A stretch of 64,000 bases of DNA from a virus (IMGVR_UViG_3300000727_000007:1-64000); one strand, 5' to 3'. Positions 4,704 to 23,817 are shown, counted from the first letter of the stretch. Program-made: numbers and translations. Notes: generated from the letters alone by a model not told the origin.

Positions 4704-5151
4704 TACATATCTTAAAATGTGTTATCAAGCCAAAGAGCTAAAGGATTATTGGTCCCCAGAATTTGGGGACAGATTCTACCTTTGTTATGACCTTTATCAA
4801 AAACATACTGGTGGACGTTTAACAACAATTAAATATCTACATGGTGCAATAATGAAATATCATAGAGGCCTGTATATATTTGACCCAAATGATAATAATA
4901 AAGGGTTTTTAAAATTTGCTTTTCCAATACCATACCAAGAACAAATACAGGAAAAACTTTTAAAAAGAGTTCCTGTGATTACTTTACTTACTAATTTTAT
5001 GAACTTTGCAGTAAGACAAGGTAGTAAGTATTCAATAGAAGCATTATGGTTAATGTACTACTATGATGTTACCCACAACAAAGAGTGGGTAGACGGAGAT
5101 TGGACAAATATTAAGGAGGCTAAGCATGAGAGGTTCTTATATCGTTATTGA
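4678..5151 (+). CDS. hypothetical phage protein
   Basis: Coupled ORF. Confidence 0.65.
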   Translation: MHVTQQIDDTYLKMCYQAKELKDYWSPEFGDRFYLCYDLYQKHTGGRLTTIKYLHGAIMKYHRGLYIFDPNDNNKGFLKFAFPIPYQEQIQEKLLKRVPVITLLTNFMNFAVRQGSKYSIEALWLMYYYDVTHNKEWVDGDWTNIKEAKHERFLYRY

Positions 5152-5725
5152 AGGTATAGATGGATCTGGCAAGTCAACACTTGCTGCGAATTTAGAGAAG
5201 ATTTTAAATGAGAAGGAGGTTCCTATAGTTAGAGTATGGGAGCCTTACAGTGAAGAAATTAAAGAAATAATAGAACAAGTTAAACAAGATGAGCCCAGAG
5301 AAGAAGAAATAATACTTGCGAACCTGTTTGCAACTGATAGGCTTTTGTTACAAGATATAATAACTGATTATCTTACCGCAGGAATAAATGTCATCTCCGA
5401 CAGGTCTAAACTTTCAAGCTTTGCTTACCAAACAGCAGACCCAATGTACAATCAGACAATTAACAGTAAAATGATTGACCCTGATGTAATATTTTATTTA
5501 GATTCTGACCCAGAAGAAGCTGCAAAAAGATATGAAGGCTCTGATAAATTTGAGAATGTAGATTTCTTGAAGAAAGTTAGAGTATGGTATAAGAGATATT
5601 TACCTGTTATATCAGAAGAAGGACAAATTCCATTTGCAAGATTAAATGTAGACCCATTTACGGAGGAACAAGTTGCTGAATATTTCACTGGTGCTCTTAG
5701 AGAACTAAATATTATAGGTGAATAA
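5126..5725 (+). CDS. tmk: thymidylate kinase
   Basis: IEGIDGSGKST P-loop, WEP, LFATDR, ISDR..SSFAYQ. Confidence 0.93.
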   Translation: MRGSYIVIEGIDGSGKSTLAANLEKILNEKEVPIVRVWEPYSEEIKEIIEQVKQDEPREEEIILANLFATDRLLLQDIITDYLTAGINVISDRSKLSSFAYQTADPMYNQTINSKMIDPDVIFYLDSDPEEAAKRYEGSDKFENVDFLKKVRVWYKRYLPVISEEGQIPFARLNVDPFTEEQVAEYFTGALRELNIIGE

Positions 5726-5727
5726 CT

Positions 5728-6132
5728 ATGACAGCAGCAGAAGATATATACATTGAACAATTTATTGATACACCAGAGGCATTAAGGGTTGTAAGATTCT
5801 GGGACAAAGACGACGGTGGAGCAATGATTTACTGTTCCTTAGACCGTATAACCCCAGAATATTTAAAGCTCCCAATGATGCACCCGATAGGTATGCAAGA
5901 TGATAATAACAAAATGATATACATCGGGGACTTACTTAAAGTTATAATAGAAACTGAAAAGTATGGTAAAATAGAAAGAATTGGTGTAGTAAGGAGACAA
6001 GGGTTGTACGCATGTGGAATAGATTATATAGACAAAAACGGCAAAGTTACACAAGACGGAGATTTTATAGACGAATTTTATATTGTTGAAAAATATATCG
6101 TAGGGGATATATTTAATGGGGTGGATTTATGA
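5728..6132 (+). CDS. YopX-like protein
   Basis: RFWDK...GMQDDNNKMIYIGDLL...VGDIF pattern. Confidence 0.7.
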   Translation: MTAAEDIYIEQFIDTPEALRVVRFWDKDDGGAMIYCSLDRITPEYLKLPMMHPIGMQDDNNKMIYIGDLLKVIIETEKYGKIERIGVVRRQGLYACGIDYIDKNGKVTQDGDFIDEFYIVEKYIVGDIFNGVDL

Positions 6133-6722
6133 TACTTCCAGATTGGACGTTGAAATCTCTTATGTATTCAGGTGCAATCGATGTCGCCCCAATCGAAGAT
6201 ATACAAATACAATCAGCTTCAATTGATTTGAGGCTAGATGATTCTTTTTTAGAAATAGAAGGCAACACTTCTGAAAAAATTAGAGGTGGTTTTACTTTTA
6301 TGGATGTTCCTGTTATAGATTTAGACGAAGAAGTTAAATACAAGGAACACACATTACCATATATAGGACCGAATCAATTCCTCTTAGGGACAACCGTAGA
6401 AACGGTTAAACTACCAGCAGATATTGGAGCTATAGTTTGTGGCCGTAGTTCTATAGGACGTGCCGGTTTATGTGTAGAAAATGCAGGATGGATTGACCCT
6501 GGTTTTGAAGGTAAAATAACTTTAGAACTTCAAAACATTGCTCCTCATGCAATCAAAAAACCAATAGGTAAAAGAGTTTGCCAGATAATATTCATTGGTC
6601 TTTCTGGTAAATGTGAAAAGCCTTATGGTTGTGAGGAAATAGGAAGCAAATATCAAGGGCAAGACAATGTAACAGGTAGTAAAATACATATGGACGGTGA
6701 ATTAAATGACAAGCAGGACTGA
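6129..6722 (+). CDS. dcd: dCTP deaminase
   Basis: IQSASIDLRL, GRSSIGRAGL, AGWIDPGFEGKITLEL, KYQGQ. Confidence 0.93.
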   Translation: MILPDWTLKSLMYSGAIDVAPIEDIQIQSASIDLRLDDSFLEIEGNTSEKIRGGFTFMDVPVIDLDEEVKYKEHTLPYIGPNQFLLGTTVETVKLPADIGAIVCGRSSIGRAGLCVENAGWIDPGFEGKITLELQNIAPHAIKKPIGKRVCQIIFIGLSGKCEKPYGCEEIGSKYQGQDNVTGSKIHMDGELNDKQD

Positions 6723-7959: not shown

Positions 7960-9537
7960 ATGAATTTAATAGAGGACATTATTAATTGTAAAAGATGTGA
8001 ATTACATGCGACTGCAACCCACAAAGTGCTTGGAAGAGGATCTCAAACCCCAAAAGTTTTATTTATCGGCGAAGCTCCTGGAGAACAAGAAGACAAAACT
8101 GGATCTCCTTTTTGCGGTCCATCTGGACAAATGCTCACACGATGGATTGAGGCTCTCGGTTTCAGAGATGAGGACTATGCTGTCATTAATATGCTCAAGT
8201 GCCGTCCCCCTCAAAATACTGATCCAACCAGAGAACAAATTGTTGCATGTAAAGAATGGCTTGAACGACAAATTGAGACACTTAACCCAGACATTATATT
8301 CTTAATTGGAAGATTCGCAGCAAAAGAAGTTGGCGGTTTTACCACAGGTATTACAACTCTAGCCGGGGATATATACGAACAACAAGATAAAATTGTTATC
8401 CCCTTCCCACATCCATCATATTATCTCAGAAGAGGAGGTATAGGTTGGGAAGAACCACTAGAAAGTGTAAGAAATAAACTTGAATTGATAGAGCAACGAG
8501 AAACTGTTAACGAAGAACTATTACAAGGTACTGAAAATGCAGTACAATTCGAGCAAGAAATGGAAGCTGTGACAGAAAGGGTTAATTTCATACAACCTCT
8601 AACAATCGTTGAGACTGGAGGGGTAGCTGCCACATCTGAAAATTTTGATAATTTATCTCAAGTTGGTATGAGAACAACAGGTAAGCAAAATTATGTGCCG
8701 ATTCATATGCATACAACTTATTCAATACAAGATTGTGCTTTACGTATAGATGAGCTAGCTAAATGGGCTAAAGAAAAAGGTTTTGAAGCTTTAGGAATAA
8801 CAGATCACGGAACTATTGGTGGTTGGGTAGAGTTCCAGAATGCCTGTGAAGAAAATGATGTAAAACCATTACTTGGTGTAGAGTTGTATATCGTAGACAG
8901 TTATGAAAGAAAAGATAGGTACAGAGAACACATAGTTGCAATAGCAAAGAACTGGAATGGTATACAAAGTATCTTTAAAATGGTCGACCGTGCACACAGA
9001 GTAGGTTATCACTATGAAGGTAGGATAAGCTATGATGATTTCATGGAACTTGCTGAAGATGTAGTAGTACTATCAGCATGTGTCGCAGGTATAATTTCTC
9101 AATGTATTATACGAGAAGAATATGATAAAGCTGAGGAGTGGGCTGTAGCATTTAAAGAACGCTTCGGAGACGATTTCTATATAGAAATACAACCACATAA
9201 CTTTGACCAACAAAATAAAACTAACCCATATCTGATAAAATTAGCTAAAAAATTAGATATTCCTATAGTTGTTACTACTGATGTCCACTATTTAACCCCA
9301 GAATATAAAGAATCGAATGATAAACTTCACGAGATATTTCATAGGAATGCTAACTCCGTAGAAACAAACTACACACCAGAAGATAATATGCTAGAGCCTT
9401 TATTTAATGAAGTGGGTGTAGATTTTGAAACAGTTAATAATGCTATGTATAACACTTTAAAGATAGCAGAAAAATGTAATGCAAAACTTAAACGTTATGA
9501 TAATGCTTTACCGCAGGTGAAATATGATGACGATTAG
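7960..9537 (+). CDS. family-4 uracil-DNA glycosylase fused to the PHP domain of DNA polymerase III alpha (N-terminal part of a split DnaE)
   Basis: UDG: CKRC, GEAPG, KCRPP, HPS. PHP: IHMHTTYS, ITDHG, GVE, LSAC, TTDVHY. Confidence 0.9.
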   Translation: MNLIEDIINCKRCELHATATHKVLGRGSQTPKVLFIGEAPGEQEDKTGSPFCGPSGQMLTRWIEALGFRDEDYAVINMLKCRPPQNTDPTREQIVACKEWLERQIETLNPDIIFLIGRFAAKEVGGFTTGITTLAGDIYEQQDKIVIPFPHPSYYLRRGGIGWEEPLESVRNKLELIEQRETVNEELLQGTENAVQFEQEMEAVTERVNFIQPLTIVETGGVAATSENFDNLSQVGMRTTGKQNYVPIHMHTTYSIQDCALRIDELAKWAKEKGFEALGITDHGTIGGWVEFQNACEENDVKPLLGVELYIVDSYERKDRYREHIVAIAKNWNGIQSIFKMVDRAHRVGYHYEGRISYDDFMELAEDVVVLSACVAGIISQCIIREEYDKAEEWAVAFKERFGDDFYIEIQPHNFDQQNKTNPYLIKLAKKLDIPIVVTTDVHYLTPEYKESNDKLHEIFHRNANSVETNYTPEDNMLEPLFNEVGVDFETVNNAMYNTLKIAEKCNAKLKRYDNALPQVKYDDD

Positions 9538-9829
9538 AGGAAACGCTAGGGGATATGACTATGAAAGATATCAACAAGAAAACTTCGAAAGATTACATAT
9601 AGGTACATACTTAGGAGTAAGTATCTCTGTTGGATTAAAAGAAGGTTTCAATATGCCATGTGCAAGATGTGGTAAATTACCTGATTCAAATGGACATGAT
9701 GCATGCTTAGGAGAATTGCCGGGCGTGATAGCTGCATGTTGTGGTCATGGTAGTAAGAAGAATTATAACAGTTATATTGTTTTTGAAAATGGTATAACTA
9801 TAAGAGGGATTTTTAAGGTGGATAAATGA
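9524..9829 (+). CDS. Cys/His-rich hypothetical phage protein
   Basis: CARC...GHDACLGELPGVIAACCGHG. Confidence 0.65.
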   Translation: MMTIRGNARGYDYERYQQENFERLHIGTYLGVSISVGLKEGFNMPCARCGKLPDSNGHDACLGELPGVIAACCGHGSKKNYNSYIVFENGITIRGIFKVDK

Positions 9830-10170
9830 AAAGAATTTTTATTAGTGGGGCGTTAAACTCCAACTCTGTAGGATTTCTTAAGAATGTAAGAAAGATGAAC
9901 CAAGTGACTGGTGCTGTAAGAAAATTGGGTGTAAGATATTACAATCCAATAGATGATTTATTAACATCCTTGATTTGTGGATGTGAAGAACATCAATCCT
10001 TTTTAGAATGGGATTTAATGGAACTGGAATATTGTGATGCATTACTTTTAGTACCAGGTTATGAGAATAGTCCTGGTGTTAAAGGAGAAAGGGAGAAAGC
10101 TAAATCACTTGGCCTGCCTGAATTTAAATGTATATGTGAATTAAAGAAATGGTTGGAGTTAAATGACTAA
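9826..10170 (+). CDS. nucleoside deoxyribosyltransferase-like (DUF4406-type) protein
   Basis: IFISG...YNP...D..L..CDA..L.PG.ENS.G...E. Confidence 0.7.
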   Translation: MKRIFISGALNSNSVGFLKNVRKMNQVTGAVRKLGVRYYNPIDDLLTSLICGCEEHQSFLEWDLMELEYCDALLLVPGYENSPGVKGEREKAKSLGLPEFKCICELKKWLELND

Positions 10171-10564
10171 GAAAATAACAGGTATAGCTCTTGCCCCAGG
10201 CATGTTTAATAAAGTAATTGAAATACCAAAGGAAGAGCTTGAATCCGTAGTTGAAAAGGACATGAAAAGTTTGGGTAAAATAGTTATTAAGCATGAAAGC
10301 AACCCAGTAGGGTTAGCAGAATTACATCTTGACGAAAGTATAGAAACATCATTTGTAAGATTTGATGGTCAGTTTTTAGATGATGTAGAAATGGATGGTG
10401 AATTTAAACCAGAAATATCATATAAAGGTATTTGTTCTAAATGTGGACAGCCTTTTGTTCGATGTAATCATTGGTTTGATGACCCTGAAGTTTATATTAT
10501 TGCAAAAGATGTTGAATTAATATCAATAGGCTACTATCCGAGGAATAAAAATGAAAAAGATTAA
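10163..10564 (+). CDS. hypothetical protein, possible prohead-protease-like fold with Zn insert
   Basis: KHES.PVG, EISY, CSKCG...CNH. Confidence 0.4.
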   Translation: MTKKITGIALAPGMFNKVIEIPKEELESVVEKDMKSLGKIVIKHESNPVGLAELHLDESIETSFVRFDGQFLDDVEMDGEFKPEISYKGICSKCGQPFVRCNHWFDDPEVYIIAKDVELISIGYYPRNKNEKD

Positions 10565-11102
10565 AGGAATACCAGATACAAATAAAACCTTATGTATTAA
10601 TCTGTTTGGTGGACCCGGTACAGGTAAAAGTACAACTGCTGCTGGTGTATTTAACAAATTAAAAACATATGAAATCAACTGTGAATTAATTACTGAATAT
10701 ACCAAAAGTAAAGTGTGGGAAGAATCATTTAAGACTCTTGAAAACCAGCTTTATCTTTTAGGTAAGCAGTCCCATCGACAATTTGTTTGTAGGGATAATG
10801 TAGAGTGTATGGTTACAGATGCACCACTTCTTATGATGAACTATTACGGAAAAGATTTAAGTGATGCATACCATACAGTAGTTGAAGAAACATTTGATGA
10901 GTACAACAATCTTAATTTCTTCTTAGTAAGAGGGGACAGGGCTTATAATCCTGCAGGAAGAACTCAAACTGAGGAAGAAGCAAGAGCAATTGATGATGAA
11001 ATATTTAAATTGCTTTCAGATAGGTTTGTACATGTCTGTAGAACCAATGATATTGGTTTTATTGTTACTAAAGTAGTGGAGGCTTTGAGTTATTATGAAT
11101 AA
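10551..11102 (+). CDS. P-loop nucleotide kinase (NadR/Ttd14 AAA_28-like)
   Basis: INLFGGPGTGKST, VTDAPL, YNPAGRTQTEEEA. Confidence 0.8.
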   Translation: MKKIKGIPDTNKTLCINLFGGPGTGKSTTAAGVFNKLKTYEINCELITEYTKSKVWEESFKTLENQLYLLGKQSHRQFVCRDNVECMVTDAPLLMMNYYGKDLSDAYHTVVEETFDEYNNLNFFLVRGDRAYNPAGRTQTEEEARAIDDEIFKLLSDRFVHVCRTNDIGFIVTKVVEALSYYE

Positions 11103-13542
11103 GAGGGATTACATAGCAGTACTTTGTTTTGAAAAAGCAAAGAAGCTAGGTATATGGAATGAAGACTGTGATAGGAGGTTAGCTTATGAGCTTGAAATTA
11201 TATCAGAAAAAGGTTTCGAAGACTATTTCCTTATTTACAAGGAGATTATCGAGTATGCTCGCTCTACCGGCATTCTTGTTGGGCCTGGTCGTGGGAGTGC
11301 CGCTGGGTCTCTTGTCTCGTATCTACTCGGAATTACTAAGATTAACCCATTAAAATATGATTTATACTTTGAAAGGTTTTTAAATCCTTCAAGACCTGAC
11401 TTTCCAGATATAGATTCTGATTTCCAATCAACACGAAGACAAGAAATATTTGATCATATCGTAGAGAAATATGGAGAGGAGTATACTTGTCGTATTTCTA
11501 CGTATTCTCGTTTCCATATTAAGCAGACATTAAAAGACCTTTGTAGAGTATTTAAAATATCTATTAAAGATGCAAATAAACTGGCAAAATTTATCCCAAA
11601 TGATGTAAAGACATTAGAAGAAGCAGAGAAGATTCCAGAAGTTGACAGGTTCTTTAATGAACATCCACAAATTTATCAACTTGCAGATGAAATTCAAGGG
11701 GCTATAAGGCAGAAATCTATACATGCAGCCGGTATTGTTATAACTCCTAAGCCAGTTTTCTTTTATCTTGCAACAGAAAGAATAGGTGGGGCTAAAGGTT
11801 CACTCTGTTCTTGTTTTGATATGTTTGCTATTGACCAACTAGGTCTACTTAAATTAGATATTCTAAGTCTAAGAACATTGGATGTTATAGCAAAGGCTTT
11901 AGAGTTAGCTAACCTAACAGAAGATGATTTGCCTTCAACATTTGAAGACCCTAGAGTATATGAAAGATTCCAAAGGAGAGAGACACTTGGTATATTCCAG
12001 TTTGAAAGTAACCTTCTTACAGGTTATGCAGATGCTTTACAAATCCCTGATTTCCCTACTCTGTACGCTTGTACTACTATTGCTAGACCTGGACCATTAC
12101 ATTCAGGGGAAGCCGAAAAATATAAACACAGACATCAAGGTAAGGAAGAAGTATCTTACTTACATCCTATGATGGAACCAATCACAGCAGAGACTTATGG
12201 TCTTATGTTATACCAAGAACAGATGATGAAAACATCGGTTGCTTTAGCAGGGTTTACTCAGGTTGAATCAGAACTGTTAAGAAAAGTTATTGGTAAATCA
12301 AAAGGTAAAGAAGCCATAGATAAATATATGCAGAAATTTATTGAAGGGTGTGTAAATAATGGAATTGATAAGAATATTGCAGAGCAAATATGGGGAATCA
12401 TCAGGGAGTCAAGTGAGTACGGGTTCAATAAAGCCCATGCTGTGTCTTATTCAGCCATCTCTTACTGGTGTGCTTGGCTCAAAACATATTATCTCAAAGA
12501 ATTTTTAGTGGCGTTGATGGTATATGAAACAGACGAAATGCAAGAAAAAGCAGTGCGAGAACTCAGAGAACACGGGCACTCGGTTAATAAGCCCGACATT
12601 AACTTATCTAATGCTAATGTGTCGATCGGAGCTGATGGGGCCATCTACATGGGATTCTCAGATATTGAAGGGGTCGGAGCGAAAGCGACCGAAGAGATTC
12701 TTCTGCACCAACCCTATGGGTCGTTCGATGACTTTTTATCAAAAATACAAAGGAAGAAATGCAATATTAAAGTCATCAGAAATCTCATACAATCTGGAGC
12801 ATTCGACTCTTTTGGACAAAGAGATGAGCTTTATTACTCTGTCACAGAAGAGCCTTTTGCTAGATGGGATACTCAAGAAATGATGAAACGTCAAGGAATG
12901 GTCTTAGATATGCCATCGGAGACACCTCTGATAGATTACTATGAGAACAATTTTGAACAGCATATTGATATAACCCCAATGAGAGATATTGACCCCGCGA
13001 ATGACTATACTGAATTATGGGTACGAGGAATTGTATCTAATTTTAACGTAAGAGACAGTACCTCACAGATGCTTGTTCCAAACGGGAAACAAATGGCATT
13101 TTTTAACTTAGATGATGGAACAAATAAGTTTGAATGCTTTATCGCCCCAGAACAATTCACTTTATTTGGAGATTTAGTTGGAGATACTGAAGCGGTTGTT
13201 ATAAAAGCTCATACTTTTAATGGAAGGGATAAGTTATATGTTGATGGAGTTCTTAGCTTAACAAAACCAGAAGAAAACAAGGATACATTTTTAAAATATG
13301 TATACGGACGTAGAGATGAATTGTTAGAAGCAAGAAGAACTTTCCCAATGAATTGTAACATTGTAAAATCAGCTAACTATCAGGTTGCAAAATCAGGAAA
13401 ACCATATATAAGAGTTGTCACTGATGAAGATGAAGAATGGTTACAGTTTAGATTCTACGAAGAAGCGATCTGCCCTGGAGAAATCATAGTATGGGACTCT
13501 AATAAAGACCCATTCATGGAAATAGAACAGAGGTTAAAATAA
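11095..13542 (+). CDS. dnaE: DNA polymerase III alpha catalytic part (C-family; palm, HhH, OB)
   Basis: GPGRGSAAGSLV, FERFLNPSR, PDIDSDF, HAAG, KLDIL, RPGP, YQEQ, YGFNKAHA. Confidence 0.95.
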   Translation: MNKRDYIAVLCFEKAKKLGIWNEDCDRRLAYELEIISEKGFEDYFLIYKEIIEYARSTGILVGPGRGSAAGSLVSYLLGITKINPLKYDLYFERFLNPSRPDFPDIDSDFQSTRRQEIFDHIVEKYGEEYTCRISTYSRFHIKQTLKDLCRVFKISIKDANKLAKFIPNDVKTLEEAEKIPEVDRFFNEHPQIYQLADEIQGAIRQKSIHAAGIVITPKPVFFYLATERIGGAKGSLCSCFDMFAIDQLGLLKLDILSLRTLDVIAKALELANLTEDDLPSTFEDPRVYERFQRRETLGIFQFESNLLTGYADALQIPDFPTLYACTTIARPGPLHSGEAEKYKHRHQGKEEVSYLHPMMEPITAETYGLMLYQEQMMKTSVALAGFTQVESELLRKVIGKSKGKEAIDKYMQKFIEGCVNNGIDKNIAEQIWGIIRESSEYGFNKAHAVSYSAISYWCAWLKTYYLKEFLVALMVYETDEMQEKAVRELREHGHSVNKPDINLSNANVSIGADGAIYMGFSDIEGVGAKATEEILLHQPYGSFDDFLSKIQRKKCNIKVIRNLIQSGAFDSFGQRDELYYSVTEEPFARWDTQEMMKRQGMVLDMPSETPLIDYYENNFEQHIDITPMRDIDPANDYTELWVRGIVSNFNVRDSTSQMLVPNGKQMAFFNLDDGTNKFECFIAPEQFTLFGDLVGDTEAVVIKAHTFNGRDKLYVDGVLSLTKPEENKDTFLKYVYGRRDELLEARRTFPMNCNIVKSANYQVAKSGKPYIRVVTDEDEEWLQFRFYEEAICPGEIIVWDSNKDPFMEIEQRLK

Positions 13543-13835
13543 TGAAAATGTTTATCGAAGTCAGAGACGGAATCGAACCGAAGTTAGAGATGGAAGACGG
13601 AGTATTAAAAGGTATATCCTTTGATGCTCCTTTTATTTTAATAGAGAAGAAAAAAGATAAGGGTCGTAATGAAGATAGATTTGTTCTTGTTCGTGTTGGT
13701 GAAACTAGACCTTGTAGTCAATGTGGAGAAGAAAGATACCCAGAACAGTATTACATATCATCAGAAACTTCAACAGGATATCAGAATACATGTATAGTAT
13801 GCTATAAAAGGAGGGCTAAAAATGCGGATGAGTAA
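13542..13835 (+). CDS. zinc-finger hypothetical protein
   Basis: CSQC...CIVC. Confidence 0.6.
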   Translation: MKMFIEVRDGIEPKLEMEDGVLKGISFDAPFILIEKKKDKGRNEDRFVLVRVGETRPCSQCGEERYPEQYYISSETSTGYQNTCIVCYKRRAKNADE

Positions 13836-14661
13836 AAGTAGTTTTTTAACATACGTAGATTGCCCTTACAATTTATTTTTAGATAAAGTTAAAGGTCGTA
13901 GAGACCTGCGTCCAACACCAAAGGAGGGTTCTCCTTTAAAGAAAGGGACTGATTTGCATAAGATTTTTGAAGATTTTTATACTGTATGTGAAGAGGAAGA
14001 TATAAATACCAAACAAGATATACTAGATATATTACTCCAACATCCTTTATCCTCAAAAGCCCATCTAGAAAAAGAAGATCCAACCCACGAAAACCTTTAT
14101 TTAAATAAATATAGGAATTACCACGCGTTGGAAGGAGAAATTCATAGACATCTAGATAATTTTGCAGACTTTAATATGGCTACAATTGAGAGAAGAGGTT
14201 TAGATAATTTCATACCAGAGTACAGAGAAATGGAAATATATAATGAAGAAAAAGATTTTCTGGGTTATATAGATAGAGCAGAGAAATTAAACGACGGTAC
14301 ATATAGAATACTTGATTATAAAACAGGTAAAGTTAAAACTTTAAGAAATTATCTAGCAGAACTTTCCTTATATAAATGGCTATTTGAAACAGAAACGGGC
14401 AAAACAGTTACAAGAGTAGGTATTTATTTTTCTGATAATGGCTGGCTAAGGACAATGGAATTAGAACAGAGTGATATTTTTGAATCTTTGTACCTCCTTG
14501 ATACTGTCTCAGAAATGGTTAGAGAAAGAATCTTCCCAAGATTTAGGAACGAATACATGTGTAAAAAGTTCTGTGAAAATTGGGGCATTTGTCATTTACC
14601 TTTATATGAAGACGAAATAGTATCTGAGGTTCCAGCAAAATATGCAAATATATTATGGTGA
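13822..14661 (+). CDS. Cas4/RecB-like PD-(D/E)XK exonuclease
   Basis: N-terminal CP, GTDLH, GYIDR, ILDYKTG, C-terminal C..C..C. Confidence 0.85.
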   Translation: MRMSKSSFLTYVDCPYNLFLDKVKGRRDLRPTPKEGSPLKKGTDLHKIFEDFYTVCEEEDINTKQDILDILLQHPLSSKAHLEKEDPTHENLYLNKYRNYHALEGEIHRHLDNFADFNMATIERRGLDNFIPEYREMEIYNEEKDFLGYIDRAEKLNDGTYRILDYKTGKVKTLRNYLAELSLYKWLFETETGKTVTRVGIYFSDNGWLRTMELEQSDIFESLYLLDTVSEMVRERIFPRFRNEYMCKKFCENWGICHLPLYEDEIVSEVPAKYANILW

Positions 14662-15641
14662 GAGATATGTATTTTCAATTAGGTTTTCCGTCAAGATATA
14701 CGTTAGAGGATAATGAAGAAGGCAACGCAGAAGCAGCAAGATTAGTTAAACAATTTAACGGTCTTACAAAAGTGTTTAGAAGTATTTATAACTATGATGG
14801 TGTTCCATGTGCGGACACAGCAGTCATAGACAAAATATTTTTTGACTTTGATTATGATGAAGACCAACCAAATAAAGCACAAAAAGATTTACAAAAACTA
14901 CATAACTTTTTAAAACAAGAAGAATATGCTCATTCTATATATTTCAGTGGAATGGGTTTTCATTTATTCCTAGAGACAGAAGTAAAGAAAGCTAGAGAAT
15001 TTATGAGTCCAGCTCTTGTTGTAAGAGGTGTTCACAAACACATATGTGCTACTGTTGGTATAGAACCAGACGAAAAGACAAAAGACCTTATGCGTTTTGC
15101 AAGGCTACCAGGCACTAAGAACTTAAAATCAAAGTTTTTCTGTATCCCACTCTCTGAAGAGATGATTCATTGGAGTAGAGAAGAGATAATGAATAGAGCC
15201 AAAGAACAACACTTTGAAGATTTTAGGATAAATGGTAAGCCATACTGTCTTGATGATTTTGATGTGGAAAAAACAACAGTAAAATATGCAGAGCCTGTTG
15301 GAAATATAGAGGACATACAAGACGAGATTTTAGAAGACATGCCATATTGTGTTAGAAATCTTTTACTTGGAGATTACTGTGGTTGGACAGGTAGACGTGT
15401 TGTGATAACCGCCATGAAAGAAAAGGCTTACACGAGAGAAGAAACAGTAAGTGTTTTAGAGAAATACCTATCCAGTAATCGCCATAAATTAGATGGTAAT
15501 GAATATGAACATTGTATGAAAGAAAATCAAGTAGATTATTTATTTGATAATCCAGACATGATGTTTCCAGCTTGTTTTACAAATAGGGAGGACGGTTTTT
15601 GTGTTGAAGGATGTGAAGGACCAAAAATTTACTTAGAGTGA
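14655..15641 (+). CDS. archaeo-eukaryotic primase with a C-terminal PriL-like Cys domain
   Basis: FFDFD, SGMGFH, RFARLPGT; C-terminal PYC...C...C...C. Confidence 0.85.
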   Translation: MVRDMYFQLGFPSRYTLEDNEEGNAEAARLVKQFNGLTKVFRSIYNYDGVPCADTAVIDKIFFDFDYDEDQPNKAQKDLQKLHNFLKQEEYAHSIYFSGMGFHLFLETEVKKAREFMSPALVVRGVHKHICATVGIEPDEKTKDLMRFARLPGTKNLKSKFFCIPLSEEMIHWSREEIMNRAKEQHFEDFRINGKPYCLDDFDVEKTTVKYAEPVGNIEDIQDEILEDMPYCVRNLLLGDYCGWTGRRVVITAMKEKAYTREETVSVLEKYLSSNRHKLDGNEYEHCMKENQVDYLFDNPDMMFPACFTNREDGFCVEGCEGPKIYLE

Positions 15642-15645
15642 TGCT

Positions 15646-16269
15646 ATGATTTACATGGATGCAAGAGAATCAAAGAAAAGACAAAAACTAGCTAAAGAGA
15701 TTTTAACAGAGGTTGAGGTTACATTCCTCGCCACTGCTGATTTTATTTTTAATGATGTTGGAGTAGAATGGAAAGAATGGGAAGACTTTGTTAAAAGTGA
15801 AAACGAAGGTCGCCTGTTGAATCAAGTTAAACATATGTTAGCCAACTTCAATCAATGTTATATAATAGTAGTGGCTCCAGATAGGAAAGTCTATAACAAT
15901 CCAAGAACAAAAAGTATGCCTGGTTCACGATTCAGAAGTTTGATAATTCAATACGGTAACATGGGATGCACTCTTGTTCCTGTTGCGTCAGACCCAGAAG
16001 GTATGCGTGCAATGAAATCTATTTGTAAGTATGCAGGTACAGAACGTGTAATAGATAATGGGTTAAAACGTATAGCTCCTAGAACTGATGACAAATATGT
16101 AGATATGCTTTGTGTCTGTGATGGTGTAGGACCAGAGATAGCAAGGAGAATATTAAAGGTTTTCAAAGCATGGGAGCTTTGGGAAGTATCCGAAAAAGAT
16201 TTGAGGCACAGCGTTGATGGTGTGGGGCCAACAATAGCGAAAGAAATCAAGAAGGTGTTCCATAAATGA
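15646..16269 (+). CDS. ERCC4/XPF-type nuclease with HhH (resolvase)
   Basis: DARE, ADF, VEWK..DF..S...GRL..Q, two GVGP HhH motifs. Confidence 0.85.
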   Translation: MIYMDARESKKRQKLAKEILTEVEVTFLATADFIFNDVGVEWKEWEDFVKSENEGRLLNQVKHMLANFNQCYIIVVAPDRKVYNNPRTKSMPGSRFRSLIIQYGNMGCTLVPVASDPEGMRAMKSICKYAGTERVIDNGLKRIAPRTDDKYVDMLCVCDGVGPEIARRILKVFKAWELWEVSEKDLRHSVDGVGPTIAKEIKKVFHK

Positions 16270-16484: not shown

Positions 16485-16849
16485 GAAAAGAAGTAATAGA
16501 GAATTTCACACGTTCCTTTTTTGTTGGTGTAGTTGAAATTAGTTATTTTGAAATGCGTGGTAAAAGGAACATTAAAATTAGTTTTAATTCTTTAGATGAT
16601 ATGAAAATGTCATTTAAAAGAGCTAGAGAAGCCAGAGCTAATGAATTATTTTTAATTGATGAAGACCAACTTACTTTTATGGCAGACAGAGATGATTATG
16701 AAACCGCCATATACATGACAGCAGTTAAAGGCGCAACAGAAGCCTGGACTATGAGATTCCAAGAAGAAGCAAAAGAAAGAAGAGAGGCGTTGAGCAATGA
16801 AAGCGATGAGGATAGCGACGATTCAACAGGGATGGCCAATAATAGTTAG
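16481..16849 (+). CDS. hypothetical protein
   Basis: GGAGG RBS, coupled ORF. Confidence 0.6.
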   Translation: MRKEVIENFTRSFFVGVVEISYFEMRGKRNIKISFNSLDDMKMSFKRAREARANELFLIDEDQLTFMADRDDYETAIYMTAVKGATEAWTMRFQEEAKERREALSNESDEDSDDSTGMANNS

Positions 16850-17408
16850 ACACATAATGGAAAATGGCGATATGGTTCAAGACGAACGTGGTTCTAATAC
16901 CATGGAAATCTTGAACCTTTTTGTTGAATATACAGACCCAGAAAATGCAAAAGAACCAGAAGGTAATCCATTTGGTGGAAGAAAACTTGAAGCATATGAA
17001 GATGAATTTACTAGTGATGATAAAGGTGACTTTGTATATACCTATGGTAACAGATATCGAGCACACTTTGGCTTTGACCAGATAGCTGCGGTAATTGGTA
17101 GGCTAACTAATTGTGCAGAATCAAGAAGGTCGATAGCGATAACTTGGGACCCAGTAGAAGATAGTAAATCAGAGGAAGTCCCTTGCAATATTTATGCTGA
17201 TTTTAAAATAAGAAAGGGTATGTTATTTACCACTGCTATGTGGCGTTCACATGATATATTTACAGCATACGTACCCAATTTCTTTGCATTGTTAAGATTA
17301 TCCCAGTTAGTTGCAAAATGGTTAAACATAGAAATCGGTGTAACAACTATTCATTCCATCAGCGCCCATATATATGAAGGTTATTGGGATGAAGCAAAAA
17401 AAATTTAA
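16797..17408 (+). CDS. thyA: thymidylate synthase (archaeal ThyA type)
   Basis: YTYG.R, SRR, VPC, RSHD, N at the specificity position, SAHIY. Confidence 0.9.
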   Translation: MKAMRIATIQQGWPIIVRHIMENGDMVQDERGSNTMEILNLFVEYTDPENAKEPEGNPFGGRKLEAYEDEFTSDDKGDFVYTYGNRYRAHFGFDQIAAVIGRLTNCAESRRSIAITWDPVEDSKSEEVPCNIYADFKIRKGMLFTTAMWRSHDIFTAYVPNFFALLRLSQLVAKWLNIEIGVTTIHSISAHIYEGYWDEAKKI

Positions 17409-17421
17409 GGAGAGTAAGACT

Positions 17422-17709
17422 ATGAATGGCAGAGTAAAGTTTAAAAGTTTAGAAGAAGGAATGTTTGTTGAAGTAACCACAGAGACCGGAGAAAAAATAT
17501 GGGCTGAGGATTTACAAATAGGTTGGGACCCGCAACGAGGATTATATGCAACCATAGTAGTACCATTACCTGAAATAGATTTAGAAATACGAAGAGAAAA
17601 TATCAGCGTAATTAATGATGTTGAATTTATAAGAGAAGAAAGAGAGAAAAGAGCTCAAGAAATTAAAAAATTATTAGCAGAAAAAATGGCGGAAAGGGAC
17701 CAGGAATGA
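17422..17709 (+). CDS. hypothetical protein
   Basis: AGGAG RBS before ATG 17422. Confidence 0.6.
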   Translation: MNGRVKFKSLEEGMFVEVTTETGEKIWAEDLQIGWDPQRGLYATIVVPLPEIDLEIRRENISVINDVEFIREEREKRAQEIKKLLAEKMAERDQE

Positions 17710-19838
17710 TTACAGTACAGACAAACCATGATGAATGTGAACCATTCGATAAAAATCGAATAGAAAATTATTGTATTAATCAAATAGGATTGGAAGAGAA
17801 GGAATCAAAATTAATAGCGTTGTCTGTATGGAGAAAATATAAGGATTTACATGATGATACTACTGTAACAACCGCCATGCTTAGAGAAGATGTAAATGTT
17901 CAACTAAGGAAAAGGGGTTATATGGATGAGTCAAGAAAACACGAAAGAGTTGGAATTCCTTTTGCAGAGATTAGAGAGTATATCAGAGGTCACAATTGCG
18001 ATAACGCAAACCTACAAAGAAATCCTGAAACATTCCATAAAAATGTGGCAGATTATGCATTAAAACAATACGCACTAGAGTGTCTCCCTAAAGACATAGC
18101 GGAAGCACACAACAAAGGAGAAATGCATATACATGATTTAGAGTATTTCCCGGGAAGACCAATCAATTGTCTCCAGCATGACCTAAGATGGATTATTCAA
18201 AATATATTTAAACCAGATGGTATAGGAGAGCATACATCTACCGCACATCCTGCTAAACACTTCCCTACATTAATGAATCATGCAGGTGAAATGTTACTAG
18301 CTGGGCAACAAAATTGTTCAGGAGGACAAGGTTTCAGCTTATTCAATGTCTTTGCATCCCCATTTGTTAGAGGTCTAACCTTCAAACAGATAAAGCAGGG
18401 CATCCAGATGTTCATATATAATTTGAACATGGCTTATTCAAATAGAGGTGGCCAGGTACCATTTACATCCGTTAATTTAGAATTCACAGTCCCAGACTTC
18501 CTTAAAGACGAAATAGCTTGGGGACCAGGTGGAGAACCATGTGGTGTTTATGGGGGTTTTGAAGAAGAAACAAGGTTAATCAACAGAGCGTTTATTGAAG
18601 TCCTTATGGAAGGAGACGCTATGGGTAAACCTCACTTATTCCCAAATACAATATGGGTATTAAGGGAAGAAATGATGACGGAGGAATTTGATGAAGACTT
18701 TAAACGCGTTTGCGAACTCTCCTCGAAGTATAGTACTCCTTATTTCGCTAATTGTATTCCTGAATGGACAGGTAAGCATTCTAATGTCATGGGATGCAGG
18801 ACTCGACTCAATACGAATTGGACTGGCGATTGGGACGTTGATACTCTTCGTACTGGGAATCTTGCGTATATTACAATTAACTTCCCGAGGATAGCTTATA
18901 AATCAAATGGAAAAGCACGTGAGTTCTATAAAGAATTAGATAGAGTTCTTGAAATTGCAACACGTACTCTATTAATCAGAAGAAGACATGCAGAAAAACT
19001 CTTAAACGAATATAATATGCTTCCGTTCTTAGCTCAGAAAAACAAAGATGGAGAAACATATTATAGAATAGAAAATTCCACATTATCATTTGGTGTTATC
19101 GGTATGGATGAAATGTTAAGGGCTTTCTGGAATGATAAGAAAGATGGTGGAATGTATAATGAGAAAAACAGAGAGTTTGTCTACCATATATTGGACTATT
19201 TAAACCAGTATGCTAAAAAACTCACAGAAGAAACTGGTTACAGATGGACAATCTTCCAAACACCAGGAGAGACAACTGCAAATAGATTTGCAACCTTAGA
19301 CAAAAAGCACTTCCCTGATAAAGCTATATATAAAGGTGGAGTAAGAGAACACAAACTCTTAGATGAAAAAAATGAACCTAATATATGGGTAGAAGGAGAA
19401 GAAGGCTCAGAATATTATACAAACTCTACACACATACCTGTAGATGAAACAAGACTGTTATTAACACAGAAGATGCAAATAGAAGCAGAGTTCCACCCAT
19501 TAACCAGTGGTGGGCACATATTCCATGCTTGGATAGGGGAAGCTTATACAGACCCTGTAGCAATTATGAAGTTAACCAAAGCTATAGCAACAAAAACTGA
19601 CTTAGGTTTTTGGGCTTATACATCAGCGTTTAGTTACTGTTTTAATTGTTGCACATTCTTAAACGGTATGCAATATAAATGTCCTGAATGTGGTTCGTCA
19701 GATGACATTGAGCATTATTCCAGAATTACAGGCTATGTCCAGCAAGTAGGAGCTAAGAAAGATTCTATTGGTGGATGGAATAAAGGTAAACGTGCAGAAC
19801 TAAGAGATAGATACGAACATGGTGATTTAAGTGGCTAA
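17706..19838 (+). CDS. nrdD: anaerobic (class III) ribonucleoside-triphosphate reductase
   Basis: ATP-cone-like N-terminus, HIHDL, NC, SGGQ, MGCR, YYTNS, CxxC/CPEC, SRITGY glycyl-radical motif. Confidence 0.95.
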   Translation: MITVQTNHDECEPFDKNRIENYCINQIGLEEKESKLIALSVWRKYKDLHDDTTVTTAMLREDVNVQLRKRGYMDESRKHERVGIPFAEIREYIRGHNCDNANLQRNPETFHKNVADYALKQYALECLPKDIAEAHNKGEMHIHDLEYFPGRPINCLQHDLRWIIQNIFKPDGIGEHTSTAHPAKHFPTLMNHAGEMLLAGQQNCSGGQGFSLFNVFASPFVRGLTFKQIKQGIQMFIYNLNMAYSNRGGQVPFTSVNLEFTVPDFLKDEIAWGPGGEPCGVYGGFEEETRLINRAFIEVLMEGDAMGKPHLFPNTIWVLREEMMTEEFDEDFKRVCELSSKYSTPYFANCIPEWTGKHSNVMGCRTRLNTNWTGDWDVDTLRTGNLAYITINFPRIAYKSNGKAREFYKELDRVLEIATRTLLIRRRHAEKLLNEYNMLPFLAQKNKDGETYYRIENSTLSFGVIGMDEMLRAFWNDKKDGGMYNEKNREFVYHILDYLNQYAKKLTEETGYRWTIFQTPGETTANRFATLDKKHFPDKAIYKGGVREHKLLDEKNEPNIWVEGEEGSEYYTNSTHIPVDETRLLLTQKMQIEAEFHPLTSGGHIFHAWIGEAYTDPVAIMKLTKAIATKTDLGFWAYTSAFSYCFNCCTFLNGMQYKCPECGSSDDIEHYSRITGYVQQVGAKKDSIGGWNKGKRAELRDRYEHGDLSG

Positions 19839-23742: not shown

Positions 23743-23817
23743 AGCGACGTAGAACAGTATGGAGTGTTCGTTGGGCTCATGACCCAAAGGTCGCCAGTTC
23801 AAATCTGGTCGTCGCTA
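23743..23817 (+). tRNA. initiator tRNA-Met(CAT)
   Basis: A1:U72; GGG/CCC in the anticodon stem. Confidence 0.92.

What the first reader, a model, noticed from the sequence alone, without database searches (positions are those of the whole stretch)
7960..13542. Split bacterial-type DnaE in an archaeal virus, with the proofreading PHP half fused to uracil-DNA glycosylase
Seen: UDG(family 4)-PHP (525 aa) and the catalytic part (815 aa) are separate genes with four small ORFs between them. No intein termini are visible. The PHP metal ligands, UDG Fe-S cysteines and motifs, and PDIDSD are intact. Established: archaea replicate with B/D-family polymerases, and C-family enzymes are typically bacterial or phage-encoded. 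Inference: a two-subunit replicase that couples uracil excision and proofreading to synthesis, consistent with the nearby dcd, thyA, tmk and MazG-like genes.
Basis: partly seen in the sequence, partly recalled or inferred. Interest (0 to 1): 0.7.

Follow-up and report, generated by a model that had tools for sequence, protein, structure and literature searches.

The report
Split UDG-DnaE replicase, methanogen virus
A large tailed virus of methane-producing archaea carries a bacterial-type DNA polymerase as two separate genes, one half fused to a uracil-removing enzyme; the layout is real and conserved, but one cultured methanogen virus already shows it in its public record.

Summary
Gene 7960-9537 encodes a family-4 uracil-DNA glycosylase joined by a floppy linker to a DnaE-type PHP domain with all nine metal ligands. 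Gene 11095-13542 encodes the rest of DnaE (palm, fingers, HhH, OB). Four small genes lie between them and there is no intein.

The host is an archaeon, very probably of the Methanobacteriales. Evidence: an archaeal-type tRNA-Tyr with a BHB intron, an A1:U72 initiator tRNA, methanogen-type thyA, Pth2, a pseudomurein-binding repeat, and best matches to Methanobacterium virus PhiF1.

The split is not peculiar to this virus. About 20 relatives break at the same PHP/palm border, with 0, 2 or 4 genes in between. Two full-length fused forms nest inside the same clade, so fission and fusion recurred. That argues, indirectly, that the halves rebuild one enzyme.

The internal beta-clamp motif is deleted, and no clamp, second polymerase or DnaQ was found in the 92-kb record.

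Precedents: the PhiF1 GenBank record shows the same two-gene layout, phages carry DnaE with a C-terminal UDG (reported in 2014), and this scan earlier noted fused UDG-DnaE in Methanothrix viruses and a PHP/core split in another archaeal virus.

Verdict: a new member of a known but uncharacterised kind.

The parts
7960..9537 (+). UDG-PHP subunit gene (525 aa), with its own Shine-Dalgarno sequence (GGTGAGG) and ATG
   Evidence: Pfam UDG and PHP. TIGR00758 UDG_fam4 scores 158.7 bits, above its 125.3 cut-off. PDB matches: T. maritima, S. tokodaii and T. thermophilus family-4 UDG at E 1e-33 to 1e-35, and Taq Pol III alpha PHP at E 2e-32. Start context.
7960..8439 (+). Family-4 uracil-DNA glycosylase domain (residues 1-160): GEAPG, F51, N77, HPS, and four Fe-S cysteines
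   Evidence: Translation. G37, P40, G41, E44, F51, N77, H151 and P152 are invariant; C10, C13, C81 and C97 are conserved in at least 90% of 27 relatives. Model pLDDT above 90.
8440..8679 (+). Variable acidic linker (about residues 161-240) between UDG and PHP
   Evidence: Length and sequence vary across the family. Residues 190-239 have pLDDT 32-58 and whole-chain pTM is 0.57, as expected for two domains on a tether.
8680..9537 (+). DnaE-type PHP domain (residues 241-525) with all nine metal ligands. It ends at the ALP(K/Q)(F/V) motif, which marks the PHP/palm border.
   Evidence: Invariant H249, H251, D258, H283, E308, H324, C374, D441 and H443. Aligns to E. coli alpha residues 5-281. All stand-alone relatives stop at this same motif.
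9524..9829 (+). Spacer ORF 1 (101 aa), no family match
9826..10170 (+). Spacer ORF 2 (114 aa), nucleoside 2-deoxyribosyltransferase-like (DUF4406)
   Evidence: Pfam DUF4406 E 5e-6; phrog_355 E 5e-8
10163..10564 (+). Spacer ORF 3 (133 aa), no family match
10551..11102 (+). Spacer ORF 4 (183 aa), P-loop nucleotide kinase-like (AAA_28)
   Evidence: Pfam AAA_28 E 3e-10; phrog_2107 E 3e-15. An AAA_28 gene sits at the same place in relative L092.
11095..13542 (+). PHP-less DnaE polymerase subunit gene (815 aa), with its own GGAGG and ATG. Domains: palm/thumb 21-257, fingers 262-423, (HhH)2 496-576, OB about 620-727, and a beta-rich C-terminal domain 730-815.
   Evidence: Pfam. TIGR00594 scores 538 bits, above its 434 cut-off. 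Aligns to Taq alpha 385-976 (E 3e-112) and E. coli alpha 319-894. Catalytic D105, D107 and D255 are invariant. The OB domain matches the M. tuberculosis DnaE1 OB (7pu7, Z 12.0, rmsd 3.0, 107 aligned). Start context.
13542..16269 (+). Conserved downstream partners of the module: a 97-aa Zn-ribbon/HNH-like ORF, a PD-(D/E)XK nuclease (13822-14661), a 328-aa AEP-primase-like protein (14655-15641) and an ERCC4 nuclease (15646-16269)
   Evidence: Pfam, PHROGs, Atlas structure TM 0.60-0.65 to viral AEP primase clusters. The same order is seen in PhiF1 and five metagenomic relatives.
5126..6722 (+). Upstream dNTP genes: tmk (5126-5725) and dcd (6129-6722)
   Evidence: Pfam. TIGR02274 dCTP deaminase scores 152.8 bits, above its 92.8 cut-off.
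16797..19838 (+). Methanogen-type thymidylate synthase (16797-17408) and anaerobic ribonucleotide reductase NrdD (17706-19838)
   Evidence: TIGR03283 thy_syn_methano scores 214 bits, above its 174.6 cut-off. Pfam NRDD E 1e-157.

Best explanation
These are the two cistrons of the replicative DNA polymerase of a roughly 130-kb tailed virus of Methanobacteriales methanogens.

An ancestral single-chain UDG-PHP-DnaE enzyme was cut at the linker between the PHP domain and the palm.
- The 815-aa product carries the polymerase active site, fingers, (HhH)2 and OB domains.
- The 525-aa product supplies the PHP domain, which has a full metal site and is therefore the likely 3'-5' proofreading exonuclease and structural partner of the palm.
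- On a flexible tether of about 60 residues, the 525-aa product also carries an Fe-S family-4 uracil-DNA glycosylase.

The two products are inferred to reassemble non-covalently into one enzyme. That enzyme would synthesise, proofread and remove or detect uracil at the fork, alongside viral dcd, thyA, tmk and nrdD.

The enzyme has lost the internal beta-clamp-binding motif of bacterial DnaE. It therefore cannot work as bacterial Pol III does, and its source of processivity is unknown.

Shown: the gene structure, domains, motifs, conservation, clade, archaeal host and loss of the clamp motif.
Inferred: heterodimer formation, exonuclease and glycosylase activity, and the replicase role.
For: Domains and motifs.

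Independent translation: each half has its own SD and ATG. In relatives the junction is TAA-ATG or a short gap preceded by an SD.

Conserved break point: about 25 to 36 stand-alone UDG-PHP proteins all end at the ALPKF motif. About 20 PHP-less polymerase halves are 41-62% identical to this one, with a wide score gap to the nearest other DnaEs (mostly cellular bacterial; 1137-646 bits versus 452 or less).

Co-occurrence: the halves sit next to each other or within about 1.6 kb in 9 of 9 loci examined.

Phylogeny: the careful tree gives a clade of 21 split and 2 fused forms with support 100/98. It includes PhiF1 and a contig from a Methanobacteriales MAG. The fused forms nest in two subclades, and the AU test rejects monophyly of the split forms (p 0.0002). 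Split and fused states are therefore interchangeable.

Only polymerase and proofreader found: no PolB, PolA or DnaQ Pfam match in the 92-kb record.

Clamp motif: the QxSLF segment present in bacterial DnaE is a gap in this clade. Alignments to solved alpha subunits stop at residues 576-603.

Host:
- tRNA-Tyr with C1-G72, a short variable loop and a canonical BHB intron.
- Initiator tRNA with A1:U72.
- Pth2.
- Methanogen-type thyA.
- PMBR repeat.
- PhiF1 is the best hit for both halves.
- The only full-length match among 185,579 species genomes lies in a Methanobacteriaceae MAG.
- 8 of 301 Methanobacteriales genomes carry a homologue.

Structure: the model shows two confident domains joined by a disordered linker.
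Against: No direct evidence shows that the halves bind.

The record is only 69% complete, so a clamp, another polymerase or an exonuclease could lie in the unseen part.

About half of the family replaces GEAPG with GLNPG, so the glycosylase chemistry may differ among members.

The PMBR hit is marginal (25.4 bits against a 24.9 cut-off).

The deeper origin of the clade is unresolved (support 60).

The group tested by AU was named after the tree had been seen.
Confidence: 0.7

Rival explanations
1. The UDG domain serves mainly as a DNA tether, processivity factor or clamp adaptor, not primarily as a repair enzyme. It would replace the beta-clamp contact this polymerase has lost, as proposed for the UDG domains of SPO1 and T5 PolA and shown for vaccinia D4-A20. 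This can coexist with the best explanation.
For: The internal clamp motif is deleted. No DnaN or PCNA match was found in the record. No conserved PIP box was found. UDG is joined to DnaE in at least 90 representative clusters, at either end of the chain. The processivity hypothesis is in print (PMC3201878; PMC4889955). A long flexible tether is present.
Against: The uracil-pocket and catalytic-motif residues and the Fe-S cysteines are strictly conserved, which a mere DNA clamp would not need. There are no binding data. The record is incomplete, so a clamp gene may lie outside it.
Confidence: 0.25
2. The 525-aa protein is a free-standing base-excision enzyme, acting independently of the 815-aa polymerase, which works alone. 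The glycosylase would remove uracil and the PHP domain would act as an AP-endonuclease or 3'-phosphoesterase, as in PolX PHP domains or EndoQ.
For: The two are separate cistrons with up to four genes between them. A PHP-only version (301 aa) next to a polymerase half also exists. PHP domains of other families do process AP sites and 3' ends (established knowledge of PolX and EndoQ; PMC5961232 was listed but not read).
Against: The PHP domain is specifically of DnaE type (E 2e-32 to Taq alpha). It is colinear with fused enzymes nested in the same clade. It never occurred without the polymerase half in the loci examined. In bacterial DnaE the PHP domain packs against the palm and contributes to stability (established knowledge, not tested here).
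Confidence: 0.1
3. The split is damage: a polymerase gene disrupted by inserted genes and decaying, or an assembly or annotation artefact.
For: Four unrelated small ORFs lie inside what is one gene in bacteria.
Against: The same break point occurs in about 20 lineages at 41-62% identity. All catalytic and metal residues are invariant. Each half has its own SD and start codon. An independent ENA assembly has identical gene structure. Nothing is missing relative to fused forms.
Confidence: 0.02
4. The host is a bacterium, so a DnaE polymerase would be unremarkable.
For: C-family polymerases are otherwise known from bacteria and phages (PMC4889955). The nearest non-viral PHP matches are from Clostridium and CPR bacteria.
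Against: Archaeal-type tRNA-Tyr with a BHB intron, an A1:U72 initiator tRNA, Pth2, methanogen-type thyA, a PMBR repeat, kinship with PhiF1, and Methanobacteriales MAG contigs.
Confidence: 0.03

Closest known systems
Methanobacterium virus PhiF1 ORF58 / ORF57 (GenBank MK994522; host Methanothermobacter)
   Same: It has the same two-gene layout. ORF58 is a family-4 UDG plus PHP and is annotated as such; ORF57 is the DnaE core. The downstream order is also shared (PD-(D/E)XK, 312-aa protein, ERCC4, thyA, nrdD). It falls in the same clade and is the best hit for both halves at 36-37% identity.
   Different: In PhiF1 the halves abut or overlap with no genes between them. Its core carries an intein-like insert (weak Hint match, 1176 aa). 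It comes from a thermophile and has a 74-kb genome. No paper describing these genes was found in the searchable library.
Fused UDG-PHP-DnaE polymerases of uncultured viruses (such as P0123, 1271 aa, and P0126, 1258 aa), and the fused forms this scan noted earlier in Methanothrix viruses
   Same: Same domains in the same order. P0123 and P0126 nest inside the window's clade, and P0123 lies in a syntenic thyA...PD-(D/E)XK context.
   Different: They are one polypeptide, whereas here there are two cistrons separated by 1.56 kb.
'DnaEX' / phage DnaE with a C-terminal UDG (Timinskas et al. 2014, PMC3919608; Rhizobium and Pseudomonas phages)
   Same: A C-family polymerase joined to a PF03167 UDG domain. 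The usual clamp-binding and CTD region is altered.
   Different: [quoted passage not shown] These are single chains with bacterial hosts, and they fall outside the window's clade.
Bacterial DnaE1 with an active PHP proofreader (M. tuberculosis DnaE1, T. aquaticus Pol III alpha)
   Same: A full nine-ligand PHP metal site, palm aspartates, fingers, (HhH)2 and OB. The OB domain matches 7pu7 at Z 12.
   Different: They are single chains without UDG that use the beta clamp through an internal QxSLF-type motif, which is deleted here.
Cyanobacterial split-intein DnaE
   Same: dnaE encoded as two separate genes.
   Different: The cyanobacterial halves carry intein fragments and are spliced into one chain, and the break lies elsewhere in the protein (recalled knowledge; Caspi et al. 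2003, cited in PMC3919608). Here there are no intein residues and the break is at the PHP/palm border.
Vaccinia D4 (UDG)-A20-E9 holoenzyme, and the UDG domains of SPO1 and T5 PolA
   Same: A uracil-DNA glycosylase physically coupled to a viral replicative polymerase (PMC3201878).
   Different: Different polymerase families (B and A) and different UDG families. This is a functional analogy only.

Membership tests
C-family DNA polymerase, DnaE type (Pol III alpha) | Pol-beta-like palm with three catalytic aspartates (E. coli D401, D403, D555) | tested here: met
   PDIDSD (D105, D107) and D255 are invariant in 16 relatives. PF07733 E 5e-76. Aligned to E. coli and Taq alpha.
C-family DNA polymerase, DnaE type (Pol III alpha) | Fingers and (HhH)2 domains after the palm | tested here: met
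   PF17657 E 2e-38 and PF14579 E 5e-19. TIGR00594 scores above its cut-off.
C-family DNA polymerase, DnaE type (Pol III alpha) | N-terminal PHP domain in the same polypeptide | tested here: not met
   The PHP domain is encoded by a separate gene 1.56 kb upstream. It is of DnaE type and colinear with fused forms.
C-family DNA polymerase, DnaE type (Pol III alpha) | C-terminal OB domain | tested here: met
   The model of residues 601-815 (pLDDT 87.6) matches the M. tuberculosis DnaE1 OB domain at Z 12.0, rmsd 3.0, 107 aligned. Pfam OB hit is weak.
C-family DNA polymerase, DnaE type (Pol III alpha) | Internal beta-clamp-binding motif (E. coli 920-QADMF-924) | tested here: not met
   The segment holding QxSLF in six bacterial DnaEs is a gap in the whole clade. 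Alignments to solved alpha subunits end at 576-603.
PHP proofreading exonuclease (as in M. tuberculosis DnaE1 and Taq alpha) | Nine metal-binding residues intact | tested here: met
   H249, H251, D258, H283, E308, H324, C374, D441 and H443 are invariant in 27 sequences.
PHP proofreading exonuclease (as in M. tuberculosis DnaE1 and Taq alpha) | 3'-5' exonuclease activity | not testable with these tools
   Needs an enzyme assay.
Family 4 uracil-DNA glycosylase (UDGa) | Motif A GE(A/G)PG and motif B HPS | tested here: met
   G37-E-A-P-G41 and H151-P-S. TIGR00758 scores 158.7 bits, above its 125.3 cut-off. PDB family-4 UDGs match at E 1e-33 to 1e-35.
Family 4 uracil-DNA glycosylase (UDGa) | Four cysteines for a [4Fe-4S] cluster | tested here: met
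   C10, C13, C81 and C97 are conserved in at least 90% of relatives.
Family 4 uracil-DNA glycosylase (UDGa) | Uracil excision activity | not testable with these tools
   Needs an enzyme assay.
Split-intein DnaE (cyanobacterial type) | Intein N- and C-fragments at the ends of the two halves | tested here: not met
   There are no extra residues. The halves are colinear with the fused P0123. The upstream half ends at ALPQVKYDDD and the downstream half starts at MNKRDY. No Hint or intein Pfam hit.
PhiF1-like replication module of methanogen viruses | A UDG-PHP gene and a DnaE-core gene followed by PD-(D/E)XK, an approximately 320-aa protein and ERCC4, with the polymerase in the same clade | tested here: met
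   Synteny. Clade support 100/98.
Two-subunit (heterodimeric) replicase | Physical association of the two products | not tested
Only indirect evolutionary evidence is available.

The most novel reading that the evidence does not exclude
Methanogen viruses run a clamp-independent or otherwise re-wired C-family replicase. The tethered Fe-S UDG would give a bacterial-type polymerase the uracil sensing that archaeal B and D polymerases have built in, or would itself act as the processivity or clamp-adaptor module. The PHP/palm cut would let the UDG-PHP module work as an exchangeable subunit.
Probability: 0.18. Interest if true: 0.75.

Novelty: new member of a known kind. Interest (0 to 1): 0.45.

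Why it matters
Published surveys state that C-family polymerases among viruses are confined to bacteriophages (PMC4889955, PMC3201878, PMC3919608). This clade, anchored by the cultured virus PhiF1, shows that viruses of methanogenic archaea use them too, in a cell that has PCNA and no beta clamp.

The clade offers a natural experiment on three questions:
- How does a DnaE enzyme work without its clamp motif?
- What does a UDG tethered to a replicase do?
- Can the PHP domain function as a separate subunit?

The repeated fission and fusion at one border suggests that it can. The proteins are small and soluble-looking, so these questions can be tested with ordinary biochemistry.

Tried and rejected
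- The search for related loci with the single polymerase half found only one viral locus. Relatives were reached through protein searches instead.
- The PMSF mixture-model tree of 80 rows did not finish, and MAFFT --auto timed out once. I used LG+G4, plus a careful 29-row tree.
- Clamp search: no Pfam DnaN or PCNA match in the 92-kb record. The 344-aa upstream ORF, considered as a clamp candidate, looks OB-fold-like in a low-confidence model. The 328-aa ORF looks like an AEP primase, not a clamp.
- A PIP-box regex found no conserved site. A QxxLF-like string at residue 687 lies in the OB helix and is not conserved, so I rejected it as a clamp motif.
- MazG, PolB, PolA, DnaB, MCM and DnaQ Pfam families: no match in the record. 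The record is 69% complete, so absence from the virus is not shown.
- Literature: no paper in the library combines methanogen viruses with DnaE, names MK994522, or describes an N-terminal UDG-DnaE. The methanogen-virus compendium (Medvedeva et al. 2023) is not held and may mention it.
- The fold search of the C-terminal model tested only the OB part. Residues 730-815 remain unassigned.

Full report
**What is there**

The window is the first 64 kb of a 91,920-bp IMG/VR record labelled 'provirus', 69% complete. An independent ENA contig of 134,817 bp carries the same genes.

ORF 7960-9537 (+, 525 aa) has Pfam UDG at residues 25-158 and PHP at 248-413. ORF 11095-13542 (+, 815 aa) has DNA_pol3_alpha, finger and HHH_6 domains and a weak OB hit.

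Four tightly packed co-directional ORFs of 101, 114, 133 and 183 aa lie between them. The 114-aa product is nucleoside 2-deoxyribosyltransferase-like (DUF4406, phrog_355). The 183-aa product is a P-loop kinase (AAA_28, phrog_2107). The other two have no match.

Each half has its own ribosome-binding site and ATG.

**Motifs**

- UDG domain: GEAPG, the F51 and N77 pocket residues, HPS, and four cysteines (C10, C13, C81, C97). It passes NCBI's family-4 model cut-off. It matches solved family-4 UDGs of Thermotoga, Sulfolobus and Thermus at E 1e-33 to 1e-35.
- PHP domain: all nine metal ligands are present and invariant in 27 relatives. This is the state of DnaE enzymes that proofread with their PHP domain.
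- Polymerase half: PDIDSD and the third aspartate (D255) are invariant in 16 relatives. It aligns to Taq alpha 385-976 and E. coli alpha 319-894.
- Break point: the upstream protein aligns to E. coli alpha up to about residue 281. The cut therefore lies in the PHP/palm linker.
- Intein: there is no intein material. The halves are colinear with a fused homologue and nothing is left over.

**Models**

A model of the 525-aa protein shows two confident domains (pLDDT above 90). They are joined by a disordered linker of about 50 residues, and overall pTM is 0.57.

A model of the last 215 residues of the polymerase half (pLDDT 87.6) contains an OB fold. Its best match is the OB domain of M. tuberculosis DnaE1 (Z 12.0). 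A second beta-rich domain follows and was left unassigned.

**The host is an archaeon**

- The record encodes a tRNA-Tyr that ARAGORN missed. It has C1-G72 and a short variable loop, the archaeal/eukaryal type.
- That tRNA also has a 102-nt insert. It folds into two 3-nt bulges on opposite strands separated by a 4-bp helix, a canonical BHB splice motif.
- One tRNA-Met has A1:U72 and three G-C pairs closing the anticodon stem, the archaeal initiator pattern.
- The thymidylate synthase passes the methanogen-specific model TIGR03283.
- A Pth2 peptidyl-tRNA hydrolase and a marginal pseudomurein-binding repeat are present.
- Both polymerase halves hit Methanobacterium virus PhiF1 best among 50,697 phage records.
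- The only full-length match to the UDG-PHP protein among 185,579 species genomes is in a Methanobacteriaceae MAG.
- 8 of 301 Methanobacteriales genomes searched hold a homologue of the polymerase half. One holds the whole syntenic module on a single contig.

**The split is a family trait**

Protein searches found about 25 to 36 stand-alone UDG-PHP proteins of 443-538 aa. All end at the same ALPKF-type motif.

They also found about 20 PHP-less polymerase halves of 797-829 aa, or 1089-1196 aa with inteins, at 41-62% identity. A large score gap separates them from the nearest other DnaEs, which are mostly cellular bacterial enzymes.

The spacer between the halves varies across the nine loci examined:
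- 0 genes in PhiF1, L008, L009 and L103;
- 2 genes in L007, L091 and L092;
- about 1 kb of unexamined sequence in L011;
- 4 genes here.

In L008 the junction reads TAA-ATG, with an SD inside the end of the upstream gene.

The module downstream is conserved: a small Zn-ribbon ORF, a PD-(D/E)XK nuclease, an approximately 320-aa protein that looks like an AEP primase, then ERCC4, thyA and nrdD.

**Fused forms and phylogeny**

The exhaustive search also found many single-chain UDG+PHP+polymerase proteins, 90 representative clusters among those retrieved. UDG sits at the N-terminus in some and at the C-terminus in others.

The C-terminal form is common in cultured phages. In 316 records it is annotated only as Pol III alpha. 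It was reported in 2014 as a 'DnaEX' variant (PMC3919608).

In trees of the polymerase part, the window falls in a clade of 21 split and 2 fused N-terminal-UDG forms, with support 100/98. The clade holds PhiF1 and the MAG contig. The two fused forms nest in different subclades.

An AU test rejects monophyly of the split forms (p 0.0002), with the caveat that the group was named after the tree had been seen.

So the PHP/palm border has been cut or re-joined at least three times. This is the best available, though indirect, argument that the two products rebuild the same enzyme.

The deeper sister group is unresolved. Cultured phage and cellular DnaEs fall on the other side of a weak branch.

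**How it likely works**

The 815-aa subunit polymerises. The 525-aa subunit docks its PHP domain on the palm, as in single-chain DnaE, and proofreads. No DnaQ-like exonuclease and no other polymerase was found in the record.

The tethered UDG removes or senses uracil near the fork, alongside viral dcd, thyA, tmk and nrdD.

The segment that carries the internal beta-clamp motif (QxSLF) in bacterial DnaE is deleted in the whole clade. No DnaN or PCNA gene and no conserved PIP box was found. Processivity is therefore an open point.

A published hypothesis for SPO1 and T5 PolA, and the vaccinia D4-A20 precedent, suggest the UDG could serve as a processivity module (PMC3201878). Against a purely structural role, the uracil pocket, catalytic motifs and Fe-S cysteines are strictly conserved.

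Physical binding of the halves could not be tested because the complex predictor was closed.

**Novelty**

Reviews state that viral C-family polymerases are confined to bacteriophages (PMC4889955; PMC3201878). This clade is an exception.

It is not the first record, however. PhiF1's GenBank entry annotates ORF58 as a DnaE-superfamily protein with an N-terminal family-4 UDG, next to ORF57, the core. No paper on it was found.

This scan has also noted fused UDG-DnaE in Methanothrix viruses and a PHP/core split in another archaeal virus. I therefore class the finding as a new member of a known but uncharacterised kind. Its particular feature is the longest spacer seen so far.

Noticed in passing
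L102:9293-12604 (G161:C33) and L101:9310-12621 (G012:C10): Two related Methanobacteriales genomes carry a different split DnaE: a PHP-only gene (301 aa, no UDG) abutting an 800-aa polymerase gene. The neighbours are cellular genes (ArgJ, ABC transporter, symporter, aldo-keto reductase). The ArgJ is 85-94% identical to that of other Methanobacteriales, so the contig is archaeal chromosome. The polymerase sits on a long branch outside the window's clade.
   Followed up: partly
window 29338-29511: An archaeal-type tRNA-Tyr (GTA; C1-G72, short variable loop) with a 102-nt insert that folds as a canonical bulge-helix-bulge intron. ARAGORN and Rfam both missed it.
   Followed up: yes
window 23743-23817: A tRNA-Met with A1:U72 and three G-C pairs at the base of the anticodon stem: an archaeal-type initiator carried by the virus, within a 25-gene tRNA island.
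   Followed up: partly
window 14655-15641: The conserved 328-aa protein beside the PD-(D/E)XK nuclease has no Pfam, PHROG or NCBIfam match. Its Atlas model resembles viral archaeo-eukaryotic primases (TM 0.60-0.65). If so, a bacterial-type polymerase is paired with an AEP primase.
   Followed up: partly
alignment A1 (relatives of window 7960-9537), motif A column: Roughly half of the stand-alone UDG-PHP proteins have GLNPG instead of GEAPG in motif A. This pattern recalls the GINPG of MUG/TDG and the GLAPG of family 5, so substrate range or chemistry may differ within the family.
   Followed up: no
window 13500-13539 (C-terminus of the polymerase half): The extreme C-terminus carries a conserved K-x-P-F-I-N-I-x-x-R-I-type peptide in 16 relatives. 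It is a candidate partner-binding tail of unknown target.
   Followed up: no
L001:7648-11178 (PhiF1 ORF57); L009:9574-12843; P0277, P0278: Several polymerase halves of the clade are interrupted by inteins (Hint, Intein_splicing, LAGLIDADG or HNH hits). The window's copy has none.
   Followed up: partly
whole record G000 versus ENA contig ERZ27254770:k141_205666: The IMG/VR record is labelled a 92-kb provirus, 69% complete, but no host genes were seen at its far end. A 134.8-kb contig holds the same genes with a different end point. The virus may be a free genome of about 130 kb, not an integrated one.
   Followed up: partly
phage records such as MT778838 81075-84443 and MG018927 53996-57388: 316 cultured-phage records (Rhizobium, Pseudomonas and others) encode DnaE with a C-terminal UDG domain but annotate it only as 'DNA polymerase III alpha'.
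   Followed up: partly
L004:1433-2167 (-) and L009:15692-16753: Mobile-element genes lie near the replication and tRNA modules: a free-standing LAGLIDADG endonuclease ORF in this record, and an IS605 OrfB/TnpB gene between ERCC4 and thyA in a relative.
   Followed up: no
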